Source: a virus
Taxonomy: Duplodnaviria; Heunggongvirae; Uroviricota; Caudoviricetes
Reading direction: 5' to 3' (one strand)
IMG/VR virus record: IMGVR_UViG_2541047926_000006
Length of the DNA stretch: 28,819 bases
In this document: positions 3,306 to 24,134 of the stretch, one piece after another
How the letters are laid out: the number at the start of each line of letters is the position of its first letter
Numbering within the stretch: the first letter of the stretch is position 1
The notes under the pieces: model-generated
The model's database searches: none
What the model was told of the DNA's origin: nothing
Seen by the model: only the letters and a program-made list of their open reading frames with translations
Translations under genes and position numbers: made by a program

Positions 3306-3881
3306 CTACGGCAGTGCTGGCCATTCAATATCCTGTGCAGTTGACGTATCAACACGGTTCAGCAACACCCGATACTTTTTCCAGGCTTCCAGCAATGAGG
3401 TTTCTTCCTCCGTTGCGATTTCCAGATCTACAGCATCCTGAAGTGGCGCAATATGCTCACTGGCTACCTGCATCAGGCTGTTTTTTGTTTCTTCCGCCTC
3501 TCGGATCCGGAACAGTTTTTCTGCTTCTGCATCTTTCACCCAGGCTGTGCCGTTCCACTTCTGAAACTCCCCTTCCGGCGATAACCAGGTAACATTTTCC
3601 GGTAACGGACCGAGTTCAGAAATAAATAACGCGTCCCCTGACGCTACGTCATAAACCGTTTTACCCCGATGGTCTTCAACGAGATGCCACGATGCCTTAT
3701 CACTGTTGAAAACAGCCACAAAGCCAGCAGGAATATCTGGTGGTGCAATATCGGTACTGTTTGCTGGCAGACCTGTATGAGGCGGAATATATGCGTCACC
3801 TTCACCAATAAATTCATTAGTTCCGGCCAGCAGATTATAAATTTTTATGGTCCGTGGTTGTTCACTCATTCTGAATGCCAT
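3306..3881 (-). CDS. tfaQ: Tail fibre assembly protein
   Basis: 191-aa ORF immediately downstream of the tail-fibre ORF with a 1-nt stop/start overlap (TAATG). Sequence recognised as Tfa family. Confidence 0.85.
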
Positions 3882-5062
3882 TATGCAAGCCTCACAATAT
3901 AGTTAAATGCGATGTTTTTGACGGTGTTTTCCGCGTTACCAGCAGCGTTAACGGTGATGGTGTGTCCATGTGAACCAATCGCAACGGAGTGCGTATGAGC
4001 ACCAATACCGACAGTATGCGCGTGTGCACCTGCAGATGCTGCTGTGCCGGACAGTGAATGGCTATGATTACCATCTGTACTGGTATTCGCTAACCACCCC
4101 GTAGACATACCTACTGAGCCTTGTACACCCCAGGTATTTTGACCTGAGCTTGTATAACCATATTGATAAGTATCTTTAAAAACACTGGGGTTAAATCGAC
4201 GGCCATCTCTATGGCTGTGATTACCAGCTGCATTCGTGCTGCCACTTAAACTATGGGTATGCGCACCAGTGTTATTCGTGGATTTAGTGCCGTAATCAAA
4301 CGACGATGTGGTTTTCGTCCCCAAATCCGTACTGGATGCGCTGGCGCTGTGGGTATGCGATTTAATGCCGTCCTGTTCCTGAGACAATACGGCCCGACCA
4401 CTGGCAGGTTTGCCCTTAATCGTCCAGCCACGCATATCAGGGATCACGCCTGACGGATAAGCCGCTGCAAGTTTCGGGTATGCAGATTTGTCAAAAGCCT
4501 GCCCCTGCATCAGGGCATAGCCAGACGGAACGGTATCTGATGGCCACGGGATTGGTGCGCCAGGCGGATAAAACTGCTCTGATGGCGTATAGAGTGAATA
4601 AACTGTACCGTCCGTTAACCCTTCCGGCTTATTAGCAGAATATGCTGGTGACGTATGAATCGTCACGCTGGCATTACTGGTATAATCCCATTGAATATTT
4701 ACACCAGTCGCATAATTTCCGATTGCAACGTAAATATCGTAAGTATCACCAGATGTATTAACCCAGGCAAAATTTGTAAACCCTGTCAATGTGCGCTGCC
4801 ATAAAGCACCAGTAATCCCCTTCGGATTACCATTACCTGCACGTAAAACAAGTTCAGATATACCTGCCTGTTGAGGTGACCCCACGTTAAATCCAGCGCC
4901 ACCAATCAACGTAATTGAAACAACAGAACTCGCCTGTGGCATGGTTACCGTTGCTAATTTGAACCAACCAGCACCACCGCTGAATGACATTGTTGTTGAG
5001 TTAAGCGTACCAATATCTTTCGGCGTCAGTGTTATATCCGCTGAAAGCGCCTTACCATTCAC
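3881..5062 (-). CDS. stfQ: Side tail fibre protein, C-terminal (receptor-binding) part, with His-x-His repeats
   Basis: 393-aa ORF with repeated GAHTHS / GNHSHS / GSHGHT motifs typical of T-even and lambdoid fibre tips. In a different frame from the N-terminal Stf fragment upstream. Confidence 0.75.
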
Positions 5063-9428: not shown

Positions 9429-9633
9429 TCATTTTCACTTTCTTAAATCTAACGACAGATGGCTAACATTTAAGTATTGTGAAATATTATCAAATGTAAT
9501 CATCATTGATTTACAAAAGATACATTTTGCCCCGAAAGGATTTCTGTCAGAAACATCAAAAGATGATGTTCTATACTGAGAACCATGGCAACACGGGCAT
9601 CTAAAGTGAATATGGTTTGTAATATTTTCTACC

Positions 9634-9846
9634 TCAAAGTGCCACTACATGAACAGCTGCAGGGCCTTTAGGTCCGTTCTCAATACCAAATTCGACTTCC
9701 TGATTCTCAGTTAACGTTTTGAAATCGTTGCTCTGAATAGCTGAGAAATGCACAAACACATCTTTGCTACCATCTTTCGGCGTGATGAAACCAAAACCTT
9801 TTTCAGGGTTAAACCATTTCACTAAACCAGTCATTTTGTTAGACAT
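9634..9846 (-). CDS. cspI: Cold-shock protein CspI (CspA family)
   Basis: 70 aa, [38 protein letters not shown]..., with RNP1/RNP2 motifs. AAGG Shine-Dalgarno. Confidence 0.9.
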
Positions 9847-10209
9847 CATTATTACCTTTTGAAGAAGTTAGCCCTTGGGCAGAATGGTCCGAAAAAAAAT
9901 ATCAGAGAGAAAAACCAACAAGGAAATCTCAAGAGGTACAAAGAATAAAATTATAACAATGACTGCTTCAGATAATTTTGTAACAAACCAGAACACCATT
10001 AACGCATGATTAACCAACCATAGCAAGGATTACTTTTGTAAAGAAAAACACACGAATGAAACAATAGCTTTATTTATTAATAAAACGTGTCATTCTGTCT
10101 AATGACCTTTTATCTTACCCTTAAGATTTCAAGGATTTTGACTCATGGAAGAGTCCTTTTTATTTAAATTTCACATTCAGCGCTAAAAATAATCCGATTT
10201 AATATTAAT

Positions 10210-11237
<1,028 letters not shown>

Positions 11238-11350
11238 GGATATTTATCAGGATTTATCGGCTTCAAATCCCCGGATATGTTAAATCTTACCTCACCAGTG
11301 ATGGGCACTGGCGGGAGGAGGATGTCAATCTGATAAACACAGAGGTGACT

Positions 11351-11611
11351 ATGGATTACACAAATCTACCAAAACAAACTTTTGCTGATTTAATCGCACT
11401 CAGGCAAGCAGTCGTAGCTCTAATCAACTTGTTGCCGGAGAAGGAAAAGGAATTAGTTAAAGCGCTTCTTAACAGAACTGCCGCCGATTTTTCATCATAT
11501 CCACTGACAGATGACCTTGCGGACCTTCCTGAATTAATTGCAGCGTCCGCCATTAAGCTTACTGAAGAGATTTACCCTCCTCAAAAATCTTCACAAAATT
11601 CCTGCGAGTAA
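11351..11611 (+). CDS. Hypothetical 86-aa protein, convergent with and overlapping the 3' end of the DUF1327-like gene
   Basis: ATG at 11351 preceded by AGAGG about 5 nt upstream. The product looks helical and protein-like. No family recognised, so it could be a spurious antisense ORF. Confidence 0.35.
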   Translation: MDYTNLPKQTFADLIALRQAVVALINLLPEKEKELVKALLNRTAADFSSYPLTDDLADLPELIAASAIKLTEEIYPPQKSSQNSCE

Positions 11612-12110
11612 CTTCAATGCAATAATCGTAAAACGCCGCAAACTGCTCATCGCGGCGTTTTTTTTCATCTTCAGAAGGAATCAGCACCGACAATTTTTTA
11701 TTCAGATCAGCGACGCTGCCCTCCAGTTTTTCAATGGGCGATTCAATATCATCTTTTTCTGACCGCAATGCCGTCGGTGGCGTCTTCAGAGAACCAGTAA
11801 TTCTTCCCGGTAGCTTTCCTTTGTAGGTTATCCACACATTCTGCGCCTCTAAAATTATGGGGCGCTTTTCCGGCGACTGCTCATCCCCTTCACATAACCC
11901 GGCAGCAACATCCAGGAAGACCTGTCTGATGCTCATTCTGGCTGCTGCCTCATAAAACTCCAGCGCGGCACCTTCAACACGGTCCAGCGAGATGTCCAGG
12001 TCAAAAATTTCACCGTCAAAGCGTTCTTTGTCCTGTAATGCTAAAGTTACCGTAACTTTATTCTCAAAATTGCGGATCCCTTTCACAATCAGTTCATAGT
12101 TTTGAGTCAT
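11559..12110 (-). CDS. ydfR: Uncharacterised protein inserted between pinholin and endolysin (ydfR position; DUF1327-like by recollection)
   Basis: 183-aa ORF between essQ and rrrQ on the same strand. Symbol assigned by position; I recall K-12 YdfR as shorter, so this may be a longer or intact form. Confidence 0.6.
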   Translation of the reverse strand: MTQNYELIVKGIRNFENKVTVTLALQDKERFDGEIFDLDISLDRVEGAALEFYEAAARMSIRQVFLDVAAGLCEGDEQSPEKRPIILEAQNVWITYKGKLPGRITGSLKTPPTALRSEKDDIESPIEKLEGSVADLNKKLSVLIPSEDEKKRRDEQFAAFYDYCIEVTRRNFVKIFEEGKSLQ

Positions 12111-12114
12111 TGAA

Positions 12115-12330
12115 TTACTCTCCTCTCGCAGCCTTACGCCTGTCTTCTTTAATCTTGAAATAAAGATTTGTCAGATACGTCAGCAGGCCAAAAACCAGGC
12201 TACCCAGCACACCGATTGCAGCCCACTGTGACGGAGTTACTTTATCGAGTAACTGCAATGCCCAGAAACCAGCATTACCCGCCGATGTGCCATAGGCAAC
12301 ACCTGTTGTTAACTTATCCATTGATTTCAT
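12115..12330 (-). CDS. essQ: Phage-21-type pinholin with dual start motif (MKSM...)
   Basis: 71 aa, [71 protein letters not shown], near-identical in pattern to S21 as I recall it. Start chosen at MKSM, not the 96-aa maximal ORF. Confidence 0.85.
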
Positions 12331-12549: not shown

Positions 12550-12720
12550 ATGTCAGAACGTAAAAACTCAAAATCACGCCGTAATTATCTCGTTAAATGT
12601 TCCTGCCCAAACTGCACCCAAGAGTCAGAACACAGTTTTTCAAGAGTACAAAAAGGTGCCCTTTTGATCTGCCCTCATTGCAACAAAGTATTCCAGACAA
12701 ATCTTAAAGCTGTAGCCTGA
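12550..12720 (+). CDS. ynfU: Small zinc-ribbon protein YnfU
   Basis: 56-aa product MSERKNSKSRRNYLVKCSCPNCTQESEHSFSRVQKGALLICPHCNKVFQTNLKAVA with two CxxC pairs. AGGA Shine-Dalgarno. Confidence 0.7.
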   Translation: MSERKNSKSRRNYLVKCSCPNCTQESEHSFSRVQKGALLICPHCNKVFQTNLKAVA

Positions 12721-12803: not shown

Positions 12804-13083
12804 AGATTGTGGTGCTTTTTGTGGGAGTCATCCACTTACGCACTTTGTTTTGCCATGCCAGCAGTTAGCTTCTGCTGTAAAACTATTCATGCAGCAAACC
12901 TGCACTTCACCACAATGGTTAGCATACTTTTCCTGATTAAGATTTTGCCAAATATGCTAGCCATTGTTTCATGTATTGGACCTCCTTACTTTTTATTAAA
13001 GAGATCCAATATTCACTACTCTGTCCGTATCTCTACTCAGGCATCAGCCTTCTTCGTTATCGTATACAGACGAGCGATGAATT

Positions 13084-13299
13084 TTAATCAGTAATGATGA
13101 CATTTGCTGCTGCAGGACCTTTAGCACCACTCTCTATAGAGAAGGTAACCTTTTGACCTTCAAATAAGGTTCGATAATTATCATTCTGAATCGCAGAAAA
13201 ATGCACAAACACATCTTTACTACCATCAACAGGAGAAATAAAGCCGAAACCTTTATCAGCGTTAAACCATTTTACTAAACCAGTCATTTTATTTGACAT
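13084..13299 (-). CDS. cspB: Cold-shock protein CspB (CspA family)
   Basis: 71 aa, [71 protein letters not shown]. Confidence 0.92.
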
Positions 13300-13599
13300 T
13301 CTACATTCCTTAACTTGAGCCTTTCGGCATAAATGGTTTGCATAACAGAAACGACTTCGTACTTAATTGGAGAGACTCAAAGAAGGAATAAGTGAATAAC
13401 ACCTGAAATGAGAACTGCTTTAGTAAACTACTTCGTATATCGTCTGTTCTTCAAACCGACGCAATCATTAACGCATAGTTGAACATATGAAGCAATGTTT
13501 ATTTTAGACATCCAGCCATCTTCAACCCCATCAAAAAACTATAGCTTTCTTCAGGAACGTGTGTATAGTGCGCCAAGTTATCAGTATTAAGGAATTTTT

Positions 13600-14233: not shown

Positions 14234-14740
14234 TTATCTCGTCACCTTCCTCAATTGCGCTTCCGCGTATGCTTCTTCCTGCCAGCACTTTGTTACCAGT
14301 TTACCAATGACGTCCGCATACCCCTTATACCACTGATAATCGGTCAGGTCTGGTACCAGCTTCTGGACATGACGTCGTGCCAGCGTGGTCGGTAAACGAC
14401 TAAACCGGTTTCCATTACAACGCCCACAAATCTTATATACCGGTACGCCATGAAACCGGGTTCTTTTTTCATCCAGAACAATCCCTTTACCCTTACACCC
14501 TCTGCACGCTGTGCTGGCTTCGCCCTTACCATGGCAATGCTGACATAGTTCCTTCACCCATTCTTCCTTGATTACAGATTCCCCGCGTCTGTAGTGTTTC
14601 ACCACTTCGCGCAATACATTATAAAATCCCGTACCTGAACAATGCTCACAGCGAGCCTTACTTGCCGCAGACCTGGAGTAATCAGCAAAGGCAAAACTCA
14701 CGAGGTAAGGAATAATCTGTAACCGGATTTCTTCACTCAA
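14234..14740 (-). CDS. quuQ: Q-like late antiterminator, distal part, with four DnaJ-type CxxCxGxG zinc-finger repeats
   Basis: 168-aa ORF whose only in-frame start is TTG at 14738-14740. Motifs CEHCSGTG, CQHCHGKG, CRGCKGKG, CGRCNGNR. Lies upstream of the lysis cassette as a Q gene should. Confidence 0.7.
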   Translation of the reverse strand: MSEEIRLQIIPYLVSFAFADYSRSAASKARCEHCSGTGFYNVLREVVKHYRRGESVIKEEWVKELCQHCHGKGEASTACRGCKGKGIVLDEKRTRFHGVPVYKICGRCNGNRFSRLPTTLARRHVQKLVPDLTDYQWYKGYADVIGKLVTKCWQEEAYAEAQLRKVTR

Positions 14741-14985
14741 TTGTTCAATGTCGGGTTATCCAGTGCCATCGCGTAATTTAGCAGGCCTTCAATCGCAAAC
14801 TGAGGGTCCTGAACACCAACTTTTGCCAGAAATAAGGCCAACCCAAGTGGTGCTTTCGACTGCACCATCCCCTGCGCTGCCATTACATCCGTAATTGTTA
14901 AACAACCGGTGCCTGTCGCTGGAGCGTCATCGCTCAATTTTGGAGATTTTGGGGAGTAATATTTTGGTAAGGCTTCAAGGTTCAT
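14737..14985 (-). CDS. quuQ: Q-like antiterminator, proximal part (82 aa), 1 nt out of frame with the distal part
   Basis: ATG at 14985 with GGAG 7 nt upstream (MNLEALPKYY...). Its stop (14737-14739) overlaps the TTG of the next ORF. The 752-nt span plus one base would give a single 250-aa frame. Confidence 0.55.
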   Translation of the reverse strand: MNLEALPKYYSPKSPKLSDDAPATGTGCLTITDVMAAQGMVQSKAPLGLALFLAKVGVQDPQFAIEGLLNYAMALDNPTLNN

Positions 14986-14998
14986 GCTCGTTCTCCAC

Positions 14999-16048
14999 TT
15001 ACGCCAGTACGCCAATTGCCAGCGCGCGATCGATAAAACGAAATATCAGCTCCAGTTGGGAGCCATACTTATCTTCAAATGCCACTGTATCCGTATGCAG
15101 CTCGTTGTGATGCTTTCTGCACAAAGGCAACACAAAGAGATCATGTGCTTTTGTTCCCATTCCGCCCTGCCCGTGACCAATCAGATGATGCGGATCGTCG
15201 GCTGGCATACCGCAGCAAGCACACGGCTGTGTCTTAACCCAACGTGTGTATTTCTCCTTAACCCAGCGGCGACGTTTAGGCAGCTTCATGAAAGATTCCG
15301 GAGACTCTGGATCAACGGTGATGCTTACCACCGTCTTTTCCTGTGGTGATTTTTGTTGCTGGTGGGCGTAAGGCAACGGTGCAAGATTTTTTGTGCGTTG
15401 TTTCAATATGCTGGTGGCGGTCTGCTCTCCCGGTACGATGTCGCTTTCGCGGTACACCGAGCAGATTTTTTCCGCTGGTAATCCCAGCGAACGACGCGAT
15501 ACAGCCTCAGGTAGTGCATCCACCACCTGATTGCAGACCGCCCACCAGGATAATTCAGCCAAAGATAATTCCCGCTCCTGCGTACCGCTTATTGCGTGAC
15601 GGATGACGTCAATCACCCATGCTGTCAGATTTTGTTGAGCAAGCAGCTCCAGTGATTCCGATGTCTGGTCACGCAGTTGGTTGTCGCAGTGCCAGCACAA
15701 CACCATTGCGCCGGTACCATAACGGTGAATGACTGTTTCAGTGTGATGGTAATCGCCATTAGGCCGCTGGCAGGATGTAACATGACGTAATAGCCAGTCG
15801 GACAATGCGCCAACGCCGCCAGCAGCACGAATCACCCGTTCGTTACTAAAAAACGGCAGCAATGTTTTGTCTTCCGCCAGCGGCTGGCGAACGGCAGGAA
15901 CGACTCCGGATGGCAGATTACGCATGCTTTTTGGTTCCGGTTCCACCAGCACTCGAGGATTATGAAATATCTGTATGGATTCACGGCCCGGCTTAAGGAC
16001 CACCAGCCCAAGCTCAGGCACCAGAACAGGTCTAAGTAATACCCGCAC
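14999..16048 (-). CDS. ydfU: DUF968-type protein with a C-terminal Cys/His-rich putative HNH-like motif
   Basis: Start chosen at GTG 16046-16048, directly preceded by GGAGG, giving 349 aa. C-terminal CACCGMPADDPHHLIGHG...CRKHHNELH. The maximal ORF extends to 16087. Confidence 0.8.
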   Translation of the reverse strand: MRVLLRPVLVPELGLVVLKPGRESIQIFHNPRVLVEPEPKSMRNLPSGVVPAVRQPLAEDKTLLPFFSNERVIRAAGGVGALSDWLLRHVTSCQRPNGDYHHTETVIHRYGTGAMVLCWHCDNQLRDQTSESLELLAQQNLTAWVIDVIRHAISGTQERELSLAELSWWAVCNQVVDALPEAVSRRSLGLPAEKICSVYRESDIVPGEQTATSILKQRTKNLAPLPYAHQQQKSPQEKTVVSITVDPESPESFMKLPKRRRWVKEKYTRWVKTQPCACCGMPADDPHHLIGHGQGGMGTKAHDLFVLPLCRKHHNELHTDTVAFEDKYGSQLELIFRFIDRALAIGVLA

Positions 16049-24081: not shown

Positions 24082-24134
24082 TTTCTGGTGACGTTTGGCG
24101 GTATCAGTTTTACTCCGTGACTGCTCTGCCGCCC
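24082..24134 (+). ncRNA. dicF: DicF small RNA (Hfq-dependent; represses ftsZ translation)
   Basis: TTTCTGGTGACGTTTGGCGGTATCAGTTTTACTCCGTGACTGCTCTGCCGCCC followed by TTTTT, matching the DicF sequence as I recall it, including its intrinsic terminator. Confidence 0.9.

What the first reader, a model, noticed from the sequence alone, without database searches (positions are those of the whole stretch)
11238..11611. Possible antisense-oriented gene inside the late operon, overlapping the 3' end of the inserted gene
An 86-aa ORF on the opposite strand starts with a good ribosome-binding site (AGAGG, then ATG at 11351) and encodes a helical-looking, acidic product. It overlaps the last ~50 nt of the 183-aa gene in convergent orientation. 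If real it needs its own promoter in 11238..11350; convergent overlap could also mean antisense regulation.
Basis: seen in the sequence. Interest (0 to 1): 0.45.

Follow-up and report, generated by a model that had tools for sequence, protein, structure and literature searches.

The report
Antisense accessory gene in phage lysis cassette
The 86-codon reading frame running against the lysis genes of this E. coli prophage is a real, conserved, already annotated gene of unknown function, and it sits in a slot next to the lysozyme gene where related phages carry at least eight unrelated small genes behind the same short leader.

Summary
ATG 11351 to stop 11611 (+) encodes 86 aa, with AGAGG 5 nt upstream, and overlaps the 183-aa minus-strand ORF by 53 nt. 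The window is a Qin-like lambdoid prophage with its lysis genes on the minus strand. RefSeq already annotates the ORF (WP_001306174.1, hypothetical protein), and it matches phrog_2572.

It is a real coding gene. Homologues at 41-57% identity keep the frame and a ribosome-binding site. dN/dS is 0.25-0.28 in the 69 codons that no other gene overlaps (Fisher p 4e-6 to 1e-4).

K-12 Qin lacks it. About 263 bp of gene-specific DNA (11316-11578) lies between a leader shared with other phages and the remodelled 3' end of the resident ydfR-like gene. Behind that same leader, related phages carry at least eight sequence-unrelated small genes, each with its own ribosome-binding site.

A hairpin plus T8 (11631-11665) follows the stop codon. 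A weak promoter candidate (TTTATC, 17 bp, TATGTT) is conserved. This is the anatomy of a moron, like lambda bor.

Expression and function were not tested, and no fold or family match gives a function. Antisense regulation through the overlap is possible, but the overlap looks like a by-product of the junction. Interest is moderate.

The parts
11238..11315 (+). Shared leader next to the lysozyme (R) start codon. The first ~25 nt occur in all phage-21-type cassettes. The rest occurs only where an antisense cargo gene follows.
   Evidence: Homology to Stx1_499, Stx2_12E129 and phage 86 runs up to 11313-11315 and then breaks. The same leader precedes unrelated cargo genes in 120 IMG/VR loci. A diverged copy also precedes the Y homologue in L099, where no R gene is adjacent.
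11253..11281 (+). Candidate sigma-70 promoter: -35 TTTATC (11253-11258), 17-bp spacer, -10 TATGTT (11276-11281). The predicted start is near 11288.
   Evidence: Hexamers and 17-bp spacing are kept in all cargo classes, although the spacer sequence varies. L099 has CTTATC-17-TATTGT with an unrelated spacer (my reading of the sequence). All 68 cargo-bearing loci have TATGTT, and the 30 loci without TATGTT (including one TATGAA) have no cargo. The match is only 7 of 12, and the consensus scan did not report it. Function is inferred.
11295..11311 (+). Leader hairpin CCAGTG-ATGGG-CACTGG in the predicted 5' UTR.
   Evidence: Predicted in the minimum-energy fold of 11286-11360 (-22.3 kcal/mol, z -2.3). 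It is shared by cargo classes Y86, C104, D, E210 and F105. Class B90 has a different hairpin at the same place.
11341..11345 (+). Shine-Dalgarno-like AGAGG, 5 nt before the ATG.
   Evidence: Sequence. Homologues have TAAGGA at the same distance. Most other cargo genes in the slot have GAGG/AGGA-type sites.
11351..11611 (+). Gene Y: 86-aa acidic, predicted three-helix protein (RefSeq WP_001306174.1, phrog_2572).
11316..11578 (.). Y-specific DNA, absent from phages that carry other cargo or none.
   Evidence: Breakpoints of blastn/tblastn homology to L007, L008, L009 and K-12. This stretch is found in 314 of 5426 complete E. coli genomes, always on the chromosome.
11559..11611 (.). 53-nt convergent overlap of the 3' ends of Y and the ydfR-like gene.
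   Evidence: A 59-nt overlap is kept in the diverged homologues in L099 and L106.
11631..11665 (+). Hairpin (9 bp, 12-nt loop) followed by T8, 19 nt after the Y stop. It is terminator-like on the plus strand and also folds on the minus strand, where UUUU follows. It lies inside the minus-strand codons KKRRDEQFAAF.
   Evidence: Fold. A hairpin at the same position occurs in L099 and L106, with a compensatory change (CGCCGC/GCGGCG to CGCCACC/GGTGGCG). The consensus scan missed it because it allows loops of 3-8 nt only. Termination was not tested.
11559..12110 (-). ydfR-like gene, 183 aa: DUF1327 domain (aa 1-112, nt 11775-12110) plus a 71-aa coiled tail 'X' (11562-11774).
   Evidence: Pfam DUF1327 E 4e-42. 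Full-length match to phrog_2091. The tail is conserved at 49-72% identity in Stx phages, with dN/dS 0.32-0.46. PGAP calls only the DUF1327 part, as a pseudogene.
10704..11237 (-). rrrQ-type lysozyme (R), the gene immediately downstream in the late operon.
   Evidence: Pfam Phage_lysozyme E 3e-24. Annotated rrrQ in identical loci.
12115..12330 (-). Holin (essD/essQ type), the first gene of the lysis cassette.
   Evidence: Pfam Phage_holin_2_1 E 1e-33. Coordinates of the annotated essD transferred from L001.
14234..15015 (-). Q-type antiterminator gene, which defines the direction of the late operon. It is split by a frameshift in this window.
   Evidence: Pfam Antiterm hits on both ORFs. K-12 YdfT aligns in two frames, aa 1-82 and 78-250.

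Best explanation
Gene Y (11351-11611, +) is a genuine protein-coding accessory gene, a 'moron', carried in the lysis cassette of a Qin-like lambdoid prophage in the orientation opposite to the late operon.

Shown by sequence and comparison:
- It has its own ribosome-binding site and is under purifying selection as a protein.
- It is absent from the otherwise homologous K-12 Qin cassette, where ydfR abuts the lysozyme gene.
- It occupies a slot directly upstream of the lysozyme gene. In related phages the same ~50-76-nt leader is followed by at least eight sequence-unrelated small genes.
- A GC-rich hairpin with a T8 run follows its stop codon, inside the coding sequence of the ydfR-like gene.

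Inferred:
- Y is transcribed from a weak sigma-70 promoter in the shared leader (TTTATC, 17 bp, TATGTT; start near 11288), independently of late transcription, most likely in the lysogen, as lambda bor is.
- Its transcript ends at the hairpin.
- After induction, Q-modified polymerase coming the other way reads through the hairpin and suppresses Y by transcriptional interference.
- The product is a small acidic three-helix cytoplasmic protein with no enzymatic motif, so it most likely acts by binding another protein. The turnover of unrelated cargo in the slot suggests a role in phage-phage or phage-host conflict. Lysis itself needs none of these genes.
- The 53-nt overlap arose because the junction of the cassette lies inside both reading frames.
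For: Coding status:
- Exact CDS annotated by PGAP in identical loci.
- phrog_2572, full length, E 1e-53.
- Homologues P0021 and P0022 at 57% and 41% identity, with 28 invariant columns.
- dN/dS 0.27-0.35 over the whole gene at dS 1.1-1.5.
- dN/dS 0.25-0.28 in codons 1-69, which no other gene overlaps; Fisher p 4e-6 to 1e-4.
- The wobble-coincident minus-strand shadow frame scores worse, lacks a start codon in L106, and would encode a basic Ser/Ala/Arg-rich product.
- In-frame 6-nt indel variants exist.

Cargo status:
- K-12 Qin has ydfR overlapping rrrQ and no Y.
- Homology breakpoints lie at 11314-11316 and 11578-11619.
- Y is found in 314 of 5426 E. coli genomes and in the sequenced temperate phages 2H10, PhiR63_1, PhiR12 and PhiR5.

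Slot:
- The same leader precedes the cargo classes Y86/Y93, B90, C104, D87/91, E210 and F105 in IMG/VR loci.
- Phages Perceval (79 aa) and Evi (98 aa) carry two further cargo genes behind copies of the leader that match the window's at 78-80%.
- The classes belong to different PHROGs, and hhalign finds no homology between them.

Transcription unit:
- Hairpin plus T8, 19 nt after the stop.
- Hairpin plus T-run also follows the stop of cargo classes D, E and F (my reading of the post-stop sequences printed).
- The promoter hexamers and their spacing are conserved across classes and in L099, where the spacer is unrelated and no R gene is adjacent.
- TATGTT is present in all 68 cargo-bearing loci; the 30 loci without it have no cargo.
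- In L099 the gene sits between Rz and the terminase small-subunit gene. From my knowledge of lambda, that is the position of bor.
Against: - No expression data of any kind were available.
- The promoter candidate matches the consensus at only 7 of 12 positions and was not reported by the scan. Its association with cargo is confounded by shared ancestry of the leader.
- Among near-identical copies, selection looks relaxed: 8 non-synonymous against 6 synonymous polymorphisms. These include a lost ATG in a haplotype found in 7 loci and one nonsense allele. A Salmonella copy is a deletion remnant.
- The family is confined to Escherichia-type prophages. Only E. coli appeared among 185,579 species representatives.
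- The hairpin has a poor T-run in L106 and is also present in phages without Y, so it may serve something other than terminating Y.
- No function can be read from the protein. Pfam, NCBIfam and PADLOC gave nothing, and there was no fold match at E below 1. The model is only medium confidence (pLDDT 68, pTM 0.37).
Confidence: 0.62

Rival explanations
1. Y is half of a two-gene module with the 'X' tail of the ydfR-like protein. The two products work together, for example as an inhibitor and its target, and the convergent overlap keeps them linked.
For: Every Y homologue found lies convergent to an X-type sequence with a 53-59-nt overlap. This holds in three lineages that diverged to dS above 1. 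In L099 the pair has moved together to a different place (between Rz and terminase), and X is a free-standing 73-aa gene without DUF1327. X's last residues (K-S/L-x-Q) are kept only in Y-associated lineages.
Against: The linkage is forced, because Y's stop codon and hairpin lie inside X's coding DNA. Co-occurrence is therefore not independent evidence. X occurs without Y, either fused to other C-terminal domains or next to other cargo. Both proteins are acidic (pI 4.6 and 5.0). No complex prediction was possible.
Confidence: 0.15
2. The functional product is the plus-strand RNA, not the protein. Its 3' ~100 nt pair with the late mRNA across the end of the ydfR-like gene. This would trigger cleavage or block expression of the downstream lysozyme, as a safety catch in the lysogen.
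For: From the start of the overlap (11559) to the end of the hairpin and T-run (11665), about 107 nt of the Y transcript would be complementary to the late mRNA. The overlap is retained in diverged homologues. The hairpin is kept by a compensatory change that alters the encoded protein. The DUF1327 domain of K-12 YdfR was reported to bind the RNase E catalytic half and to co-purify with RNA (PMC13232886), so RNA decay may matter at this locus.
Against: Protein-level selection on the 69 non-overlapped codons and the conserved ribosome-binding sites show that the ORF is not incidental. Two cargo classes in the same slot, C104 and F105, do not overlap the upstream gene at all. The RNA effect could exist alongside the protein but cannot replace it.
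Confidence: 0.12
3. The ORF is not a gene. It is a chance open frame, or the antisense shadow of a decayed late gene that once filled the 321-nt gap between the ydfR-like gene and the lysozyme gene.
For: ORFs of this length arise by chance in shuffled sequence. Some relatives carry long ydfR-like proteins of 263-329 aa that fill this space on the minus strand. The minus-strand shadow frame is open for 65 codons. Recent polymorphism is close to neutral, with start-loss and nonsense alleles.
Against: tblastn with the long relatives finds no homology to any minus-strand frame of 11238-11558. dN/dS is 0.25-0.28 with strong statistical support. Start codon and ribosome-binding site are conserved in diverged homologues. 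The shadow frame has no start codon in L106.
Confidence: 0.04
4. Y is a regulator of lysis, for example a protein that tunes the holin, the endolysin or the YdfR-like protein, and so belongs to the lysis programme as a core component and not as a dispensable add-on.
For: Its position between holin and endolysin is kept in most carriers.
Against: It is oriented against the late operon, so it cannot be co-expressed with the lysis genes from the late promoter. Phages with the same holin and lysozyme types carry unrelated cargo or none. In L099 it lies outside the holin-endolysin interval.
Confidence: 0.07

Closest known systems
Lambda bor, and morons in general as defined for lambdoid/HK97-like phages (from my own knowledge of the Hendrix and Juhala work; those papers were not read here)
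   Same: A single small gene sits between conserved late-operon genes. It is absent from close relatives at the same position. It is oriented against late transcription, like bor downstream of Rz. It has its own ribosome-binding site, a candidate promoter and a terminator-like hairpin. In locus L099 the Y homologue lies in the interval between Rz and terminase, where lambda carries bor.
   Different: Bor is a lipoprotein with a known phenotype (serum resistance). Y is a soluble acidic helical protein with no known phenotype and no sequence relation to Bor. Y's 3' end and hairpin lie inside the neighbouring gene and not in an intergenic gap. Expression from the prophage is not shown.
[quoted passage not shown]
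   Same: A fixed position in a temperate phage is bounded by conserved sequence, and many unrelated genes replace one another there.
   Different: Those hotspots carry recognisable multi-gene anti-phage systems. Here the cargo is one small gene (79-210 aa) with no hit to any PADLOC model. The cargo is driven from a shared leader, and the slot lies inside the lysis cassette of lambdoid phages.
Convergent 3'-overlapping sense/antisense pairs such as type I toxin-antitoxin loci (txpA/RatA, bsrG/SR4; from my own knowledge)
   Same: Two convergent transcription units have complementary 3' ends and a shared bidirectional hairpin.
   Different: Both partners here encode hydrophilic proteins. Neither is a small hydrophobic toxin, and the antisense partner is under protein-level selection.
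YdfR / DUF1327 family (the neighbouring gene, not Y)
   Same: The 183-aa minus-strand ORF has a complete DUF1327 domain. Its first 74 residues are 82% identical to K-12 YdfR.
   Different: It carries a 71-aa coiled tail that K-12 YdfR lacks. Y itself has no relation to DUF1327.

Membership tests
Moron (accessory transcription unit inserted in a phage operon) | Present in some phages and absent from close relatives at the same position, between conserved genes | tested here: met
   K-12 Qin has ydfR abutting rrrQ with no Y. H-19B-type and Stx2_95-type cassettes have no cargo. Y-specific DNA occurs in 314 of 5426 E. coli genomes.
Moron (accessory transcription unit inserted in a phage operon) | Own promoter, independent of the operon it sits in | tested here: inconclusive
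   A conserved TTTATC-17-TATGTT is found in all cargo classes, and CTTATC-17-TATTGT in L099. It matches the consensus at only 7 of 12 positions, was not called by the scan, and its activity is untested.
Moron (accessory transcription unit inserted in a phage operon) | Own transcription terminator | tested here: met
   At sequence level only: a 9-bp GC-rich hairpin plus T8 lies 19 nt after the stop. Similar hairpin and T-run elements follow cargo classes D, E and F. Termination was not measured.
Moron (accessory transcription unit inserted in a phage operon) | Expressed from the repressed prophage | not testable with these tools
   No transcriptome, TSS or ribosome-profiling data could be queried. 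Literature searches found nothing on this gene.
Moron (accessory transcription unit inserted in a phage operon) | Base composition different from its neighbours | tested here: inconclusive
   Y has 41% GC, against 45-52% for the holin, ydfR-like, lysozyme and Rz genes. The difference is small for a 261-nt gene.
phrog_2572 (PHROG family of unknown function) | Full-length significant match to the family profile | tested here: met
   E 1.2e-53, residues 1-86 on profile positions 1-86 of 86. The diverged homologue in L106 also matches, E 4e-39.
DUF1823 (label given to this protein in the PhiR12/PhiR5 phage records) | Match to Pfam DUF1823 at or near the gathering score | tested here: not met
   A Pfam scan at E up to 0.1 returned only a sub-threshold ABATE hit (14 bits against a cutoff of 24.4) and no DUF1823.
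Known anti-phage defence proteins (PADLOC-DB 2.0) | Match to any defence-system model | tested here: not met
   There were no hits at E up to 0.1 for Y, the 183-aa protein, or the four other cargo proteins scanned (E210, C104, Perceval 79 aa, Evi 98 aa). B90, D87 and F105 were not scanned against PADLOC.
Type I toxin-antitoxin / cis-antisense pair | Small hydrophobic membrane toxin opposite a non-coding antisense RNA | tested here: not met
   Both ORFs are hydrophilic and acidic (GRAVY -0.11 and -0.45). The antisense partner is protein-coding under selection.
Rfam RNA families | Match of 11238-11700 to any curated RNA family at gathering score | tested here: not met
   The window's only Rfam hits lie elsewhere: IS009, two cspA thermoregulators and DicF.

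The most novel reading that the evidence does not exclude
The interval just upstream of the endolysin gene in phage-21-type lysis cassettes is a previously undescribed cargo slot of lambdoid and Stx phages. One shared promoter-leader drives, against the late operon, whichever of at least eight unrelated small proteins happens to be installed. These proteins would be lysogen-expressed weapons or shields in phage-phage or phage-host conflict (superinfection exclusion, anti-defence, or control of a rival's lysis). Their transcripts would additionally pair with the resident late mRNA next to a YdfR-type RNase E-binding protein.
Probability: 0.25. Interest if true: 0.65.

Novelty: new member of a known kind. 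Interest (0 to 1): 0.4.

Why it matters
The gene itself is a small annotated hypothetical. The result still settles three things.

1. The antisense ORF is real. The plus strand is under selection where nothing else overlaps it.
2. The PGAP pseudogene call for the neighbouring ydfR-like gene is probably wrong. The 183-aa form is a conserved family, and its tail is conserved in Stx phages.
3. The site is a recurrent cargo slot with a shared leader. It occurs in 86 GenBank phage records and in at least 120 IMG/VR contigs, many of them Stx-converting phages.

Slots like this have been productive places to find new defence and counter-defence proteins. This one offers a compact panel of at least eight untested small proteins plus a common promoter that can be tested with a single reporter. 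It also flags mis-annotations in Stx phages, where long 'hypothetical' ORFs on the late strand run through an unannotated antisense gene.

Tried and rejected
- Function by sequence gave nothing. Pfam returned only a sub-threshold ABATE hit. NCBIfam and PADLOC returned nothing.
- Function by fold gave nothing. The AF2 model (pLDDT 68) had no Foldseek match with E below 1 in BFVD or PDB.
- Remnant of a longer late-strand gene: rejected. tblastn with the 263-, 213- and 329-aa relatives finds nothing in 11238-11558.
- Cargo classes as diverged homologues of one family: rejected. A shared 'LLP-E-E-VKA' motif between Y and phage 86 orf6 looked suggestive by eye, but BLASTP found nothing and hhalign probabilities were 3% or less for all class pairs.
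- The 975-aa hit with eight matched stretches (P0020) is a repeat protein whose repeats resemble one helix-turn-helix of Y. I treated it as motif similarity and not homology.
- dN/dS between the two common E. coli variants (0.6, from 12 substitutions) and polymorphism counts among near-identical copies (8 non-synonymous, 6 synonymous) were too sparse to decide. The diverged homologues were needed.
- Codon-position counting cannot separate Y from its minus-strand shadow, because the two frames share wobble positions. I used start codons, stop codons, dN/dS and composition instead.
- The consensus scan found no promoter in 11238-11350. It also missed the hairpin, because it allows loops of 3-8 nt only.
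- Literature searches for the accession, DUF1327, DUF1823, ydfR and lysis-cassette morons found nothing on Y or on the slot.
- The scan of species-representative genomes returned only E. coli.
Full report
**What is in the window.** The region is the lysis cassette of a Qin-like lambdoid prophage of E. coli, with the late genes on the minus strand.
- The Q-type antiterminator lies at 14234-15015 (Pfam Antiterm).
- A phage-21-type holin lies at 12115-12330, and a 183-aa ORF with a DUF1327 domain at 11559-12110.
- The rrrQ-type lysozyme lies at 10704-11237, and an Rz-like DUF2514 gene at 10210-10707.
- DNA identical to 11100-12200 occurs in strain PE164. There PGAP annotates essD, a 'YdfR family protein' pseudogene, a plus-strand 'hypothetical protein' WP_001306174.1, and rrrQ.
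- That hypothetical protein is exactly the finding's ORF. The same protein is annotated in CFT073.

**The observation.** It is correct in every detail.
- ATG is at 11351 and TAA at 11609-11611, giving 86 codons. AGAGG at 11341-11345 lies 5 nt upstream.
- The 3' ends of the two ORFs overlap convergently by 53 nt.
- The product is acidic (pI 4.57). It is predicted to form three helices at medium confidence (pLDDT 68, pTM 0.37).
- An ORF of this length is not significant on its own. Shuffles of the window give about seven.

**Is it a gene?**
- The 5.8-billion-protein search found only near-identical E. coli proteins in two main variants, 98-100% and about 90% identical, plus truncated remnants.
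- The exhaustive HMMER search added two real, diverged homologues: P0021 (93 aa, 57%) and P0022 (89 aa, 41%). They share 28 invariant columns with Y, concentrated in the first 55 residues.
- I recovered their DNA from IMG/VR. Both keep the frame, the start position and a TAAGGA ribosome-binding site.
- Nei-Gojobori dN/dS against the window is 0.27-0.35 at dS 1.1-1.5.
- Restricted to codons 1-69, which nothing else overlaps, dN/dS is 0.25-0.28. The excess of synonymous change has Fisher p between 4e-6 and 1e-4.
- The only competing frame is the minus-strand shadow, whose wobble positions coincide with Y's. It scores worse (0.33-0.57) and has no start codon in L106. It would encode a basic Ser/Ala/Arg-rich product typical of antisense shadows.
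- Against this, recent copies look relaxed. Near-identical haplotypes show 8 non-synonymous and 6 synonymous polymorphisms, including a lost ATG in a haplotype seen in 7 loci and one nonsense allele. That is expected in decaying prophages. In this window the Q gene itself is frameshifted.

**What was inserted into what.**
- In K-12 Qin, the 103-aa ydfR overlaps the rrrQ start codon and there is no Y.
- Homology between the window and phages carrying something else at this spot runs from the lysozyme gene up to 11313-11315. It then breaks and resumes at 11578-11619.
- So about 263 bp are Y-specific. They occur in 314 of 5426 complete E. coli genomes, always chromosomal. They also occur in the sequenced temperate phages 2H10, PhiR63_1, PhiR12_1/2/5 and PhiR5_1.
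- The 183-aa ORF is the resident gene and not an insert. It has a complete DUF1327 domain (aa 1-112) plus a 71-aa tail, which I call X.
- The core of X, EKKRRDEQFAAFYDYC, is conserved at 49-72% identity in Stx1 and Stx2 phages. There X continues into other C-terminal domains of 263-329-aa proteins.
- The 183-aa form is itself a PHROG family (phrog_2091, full length). The tail has dN/dS 0.32-0.46 against the Stx relatives. PGAP's 'pseudogene, missing C-terminus' call is therefore probably an artefact of comparison with short YdfR proteins.
- Protein homology to relatives that lack Y ends near 11583. So roughly the last 9 codons of Y are the antisense of sequence shared with Y-less phages. The last codons of X are specific to Y-carrying lineages. 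The junction lies inside both frames, which explains the overlap.

**The slot.** The 76 nt next to the lysozyme start codon (11238-11315) are shared with phages that carry different plus-strand genes there.
- Behind it lie the following classes in IMG/VR loci: Y86/Y93; a 90-aa class (the commonest); the 104-aa orf6 of Stx2 phage 86; an 87-91-aa class; a 210-aa class in Stx1 phages; and a 105-aa class.
- Phages Perceval (79 aa) and Evi (98 aa) add two more, behind copies of the leader that match the window's at 78-80%.
- Most have GAGG/AGGA-type ribosome-binding sites.
- They fall into different PHROGs of unknown function. hhalign finds no relationship between classes (probability 3% or less).
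- None of the cargo proteins scanned hits Pfam or PADLOC above threshold.
- Cassettes of the H-19B type and the Stx2_95 type have no cargo.

**The transcription unit.**
- The first ~25 nt of the leader are present in all cassettes, with or without cargo, so on the late strand they probably belong to the lysozyme's translation start region.
- The rest of the leader is present only with cargo.
- Within the leader, TTTATC (11253-11258) and TATGTT (11276-11281) are separated by 17 bp in every cargo class, although the spacer sequence varies.
- In L099 the Y homologue has no adjacent lysozyme gene. Its leader is recognisably related and reads CTTATC-17-TATTGT with an unrelated spacer (my reading of the sequence).
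- All 68 cargo-bearing loci have TATGTT. None of the 30 loci with another hexamer has cargo.
- The candidate is weak (7 of 12; not called), and its link to cargo is confounded by common descent. I therefore rate the promoter as inferred.
- The predicted 5' UTR contains a hairpin at 11295-11311.
- Nineteen nt after the stop codon, a 9-bp GC-rich hairpin with a 12-nt loop is followed by T8 (11631-11665).
- A hairpin sits at the same place in both diverged lineages. In L106 a compensatory change preserves it while altering the encoded X residues from RR..AA to RHH..GVA.
- Cargo classes D, E and F also end with a hairpin and a T-run (my reading of the sequences printed).
- Promoter candidate, ribosome-binding site, ORF and terminator-like hairpin, present in some phages and absent in close relatives, match the textbook anatomy of a moron. 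The orientation against the late operon is that of lambda bor.
- In L099 the X-Y pair lies between Rz and the terminase small-subunit gene. From my knowledge of lambda, bor sits in that interval.

**How it most likely works.**
- Shown: a protein-coding accessory gene with its own translation signals, bounded by a shared leader and a hairpin, in a slot with high cargo turnover.
- Inferred: transcription from the leader promoter independently of Q, most likely in the lysogen; termination at the hairpin; read-through of that hairpin and interference with Y transcription by Q-modified polymerase after induction.
- The protein has no membrane segment, no catalytic motif and no fold match. It most likely acts by binding a partner.
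- The replacement of unrelated small proteins at one site suggests a conflict-related role. It does not look like a core lysis role, because phages with the same holin and lysozyme do without it.
- I put 0.62 on this package as a whole. I put about 0.85 on the narrower claim that Y is a real protein-coding gene.

**Rivals.**
- Functional pairing of Y with X is suggested because the two are always together, even when relocated in L099 as a free-standing 73-aa X plus Y. But Y's stop codon and hairpin lie inside X's coding DNA, so the linkage is forced, and X occurs without Y (0.15).
- An RNA-level effect of the roughly 107 nt of complementarity (11559-11665) is plausible. It gains some colour from the report that the DUF1327 domain of K-12 YdfR binds the catalytic half of RNase E and co-purifies with RNA (PMC13232886). 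It cannot replace the protein given the selection data, and two cargo classes do not overlap their neighbour at all (0.12).
- A core lysis regulator fits the position but not the orientation or the dispensability (0.07).
- A chance ORF or antisense shadow is essentially excluded (0.04).

**Novelty and score.** The gene is already annotated as a hypothetical protein and has a PHROG number, so its existence is not new. Its coding status, its cassette boundaries, the shared leader and the multi-cargo slot are not described in any paper I could find. The held library is incomplete, however. I file it as a new member of a known kind (a bor-like antisense moron). The slot is a modest new observation, relevant to Stx phages. 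Interest is 0.4.

Noticed in passing
window 14234-15015 (-): The Q-type antiterminator gene is split into two ORFs (92 and 168 aa). K-12 YdfT aligns at 98% identity but in two different frames, aa 1-82 and 78-250. Q is therefore frameshifted here, and this prophage probably cannot switch on its late operon.
   Followed up: partly
window 11559-12110 (-); L001 3676-4011: PGAP annotates only the DUF1327 part of the 183-aa ORF, as a pseudogene 'missing C-terminus'. Yet the full 183-aa form is a PHROG family (phrog_2091), and its tail is conserved in Stx phages. The pseudogene call is probably wrong.
   Followed up: yes
window 11631-11660; L099 about 4303-4330; L106 about 4306-4333; also L009 (Stx2_95): A GC-rich hairpin is embedded in the codons KKRRDEQFAAF of the ydfR-like tail. 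A compensatory change keeps it in a diverged lineage, and it is 98% identical in a phage that has no antisense gene. Its role may therefore go beyond terminating Y.
   Followed up: partly
L007 (Stx1a phage Stx1_499) 2047-2679 (-) against the annotated CDS 1507-2298: A 210-aa antisense ORF with a strong AGGAG site is unannotated. Meanwhile the annotated 263-aa 'hypothetical protein' on the late strand loses homology to its relatives after about residue 162 and runs about 250 nt through the antisense ORF. This is probably a mis-annotation, repeated in several Stx1a phage records.
   Followed up: partly
L013 (phage Perceval) 1935-2174 (+): An unannotated 79-aa antisense ORF (phrog_21218) with a GAGGA site lies in the 370-nt gap upstream of the endolysin gene.
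   Followed up: partly
IMG/VR loci of the 90-aa cargo class, e.g. L109, L114 (leader positions about 50-75): This class has a different leader hairpin at the position of the window's 11295-11311 hairpin. Paired differences between variants (GGCCTG...CAGGC against AGCCTG...CAGGCT) suggest that the structure itself is maintained.
   Followed up: no
window 11359-11588 compared with L004 (PhiR12_2): Five of the differences between the two common Y variants are adjacent double substitutions, e.g. TACACA to TATCCA and GAGAAG to GATGAG. Four of them hit the third position of one codon and the first of the next. The cause is unexplained (multi-nucleotide mutation or gene conversion?).
   Followed up: no
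protein P0023 (95 aa): A database protein aligns to Y over residues 3-80 but has most charged residues replaced by Val, Leu or Phe. It looks like a heavily mutated or mis-sequenced copy.
   Followed up: no
protein P0018 (Salmonella enterica, 64 aa): The only non-Escherichia relative is a remnant. Its first ~27 codons of Y are joined directly to sequence that matches the plus-strand reading of DNA beyond the hairpin, which implies a deletion of roughly 240 bp.
   Followed up: no
window 12550-12720 (+): ynfU (Pfam YnfU, E 4e-31) is another small plus-strand gene inside the late region, between the holin gene and cspB. It is a zinc-ribbon protein.
   Followed up: partly
window 3340-3538 (-), 9588-9993 (-), 13068-13460 (-), 24083-24134 (+): Rfam hits at gathering score: IS009, two cspA thermoregulator leaders (in front of the cspI-like and cspB-like genes), and DicF sRNA.
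   Followed up: no
PMC13232886 (RNA Biol 2026): K-12 YdfR residues 1-72, the DUF1327 domain shared with the 183-aa protein here, were reported to bind the catalytic half of RNase E and to co-purify with RNA. This is a lead for the function of the neighbouring gene.
   Followed up: partly
protein P0020 (975 aa, TPR/CHAT-like repeat protein): Eight repeats of this long protein each align to Y residues about 14-73 (36% identity). Y's first two helices therefore resemble a TPR-like helical hairpin. I treated this as motif-level similarity.
   Followed up: no
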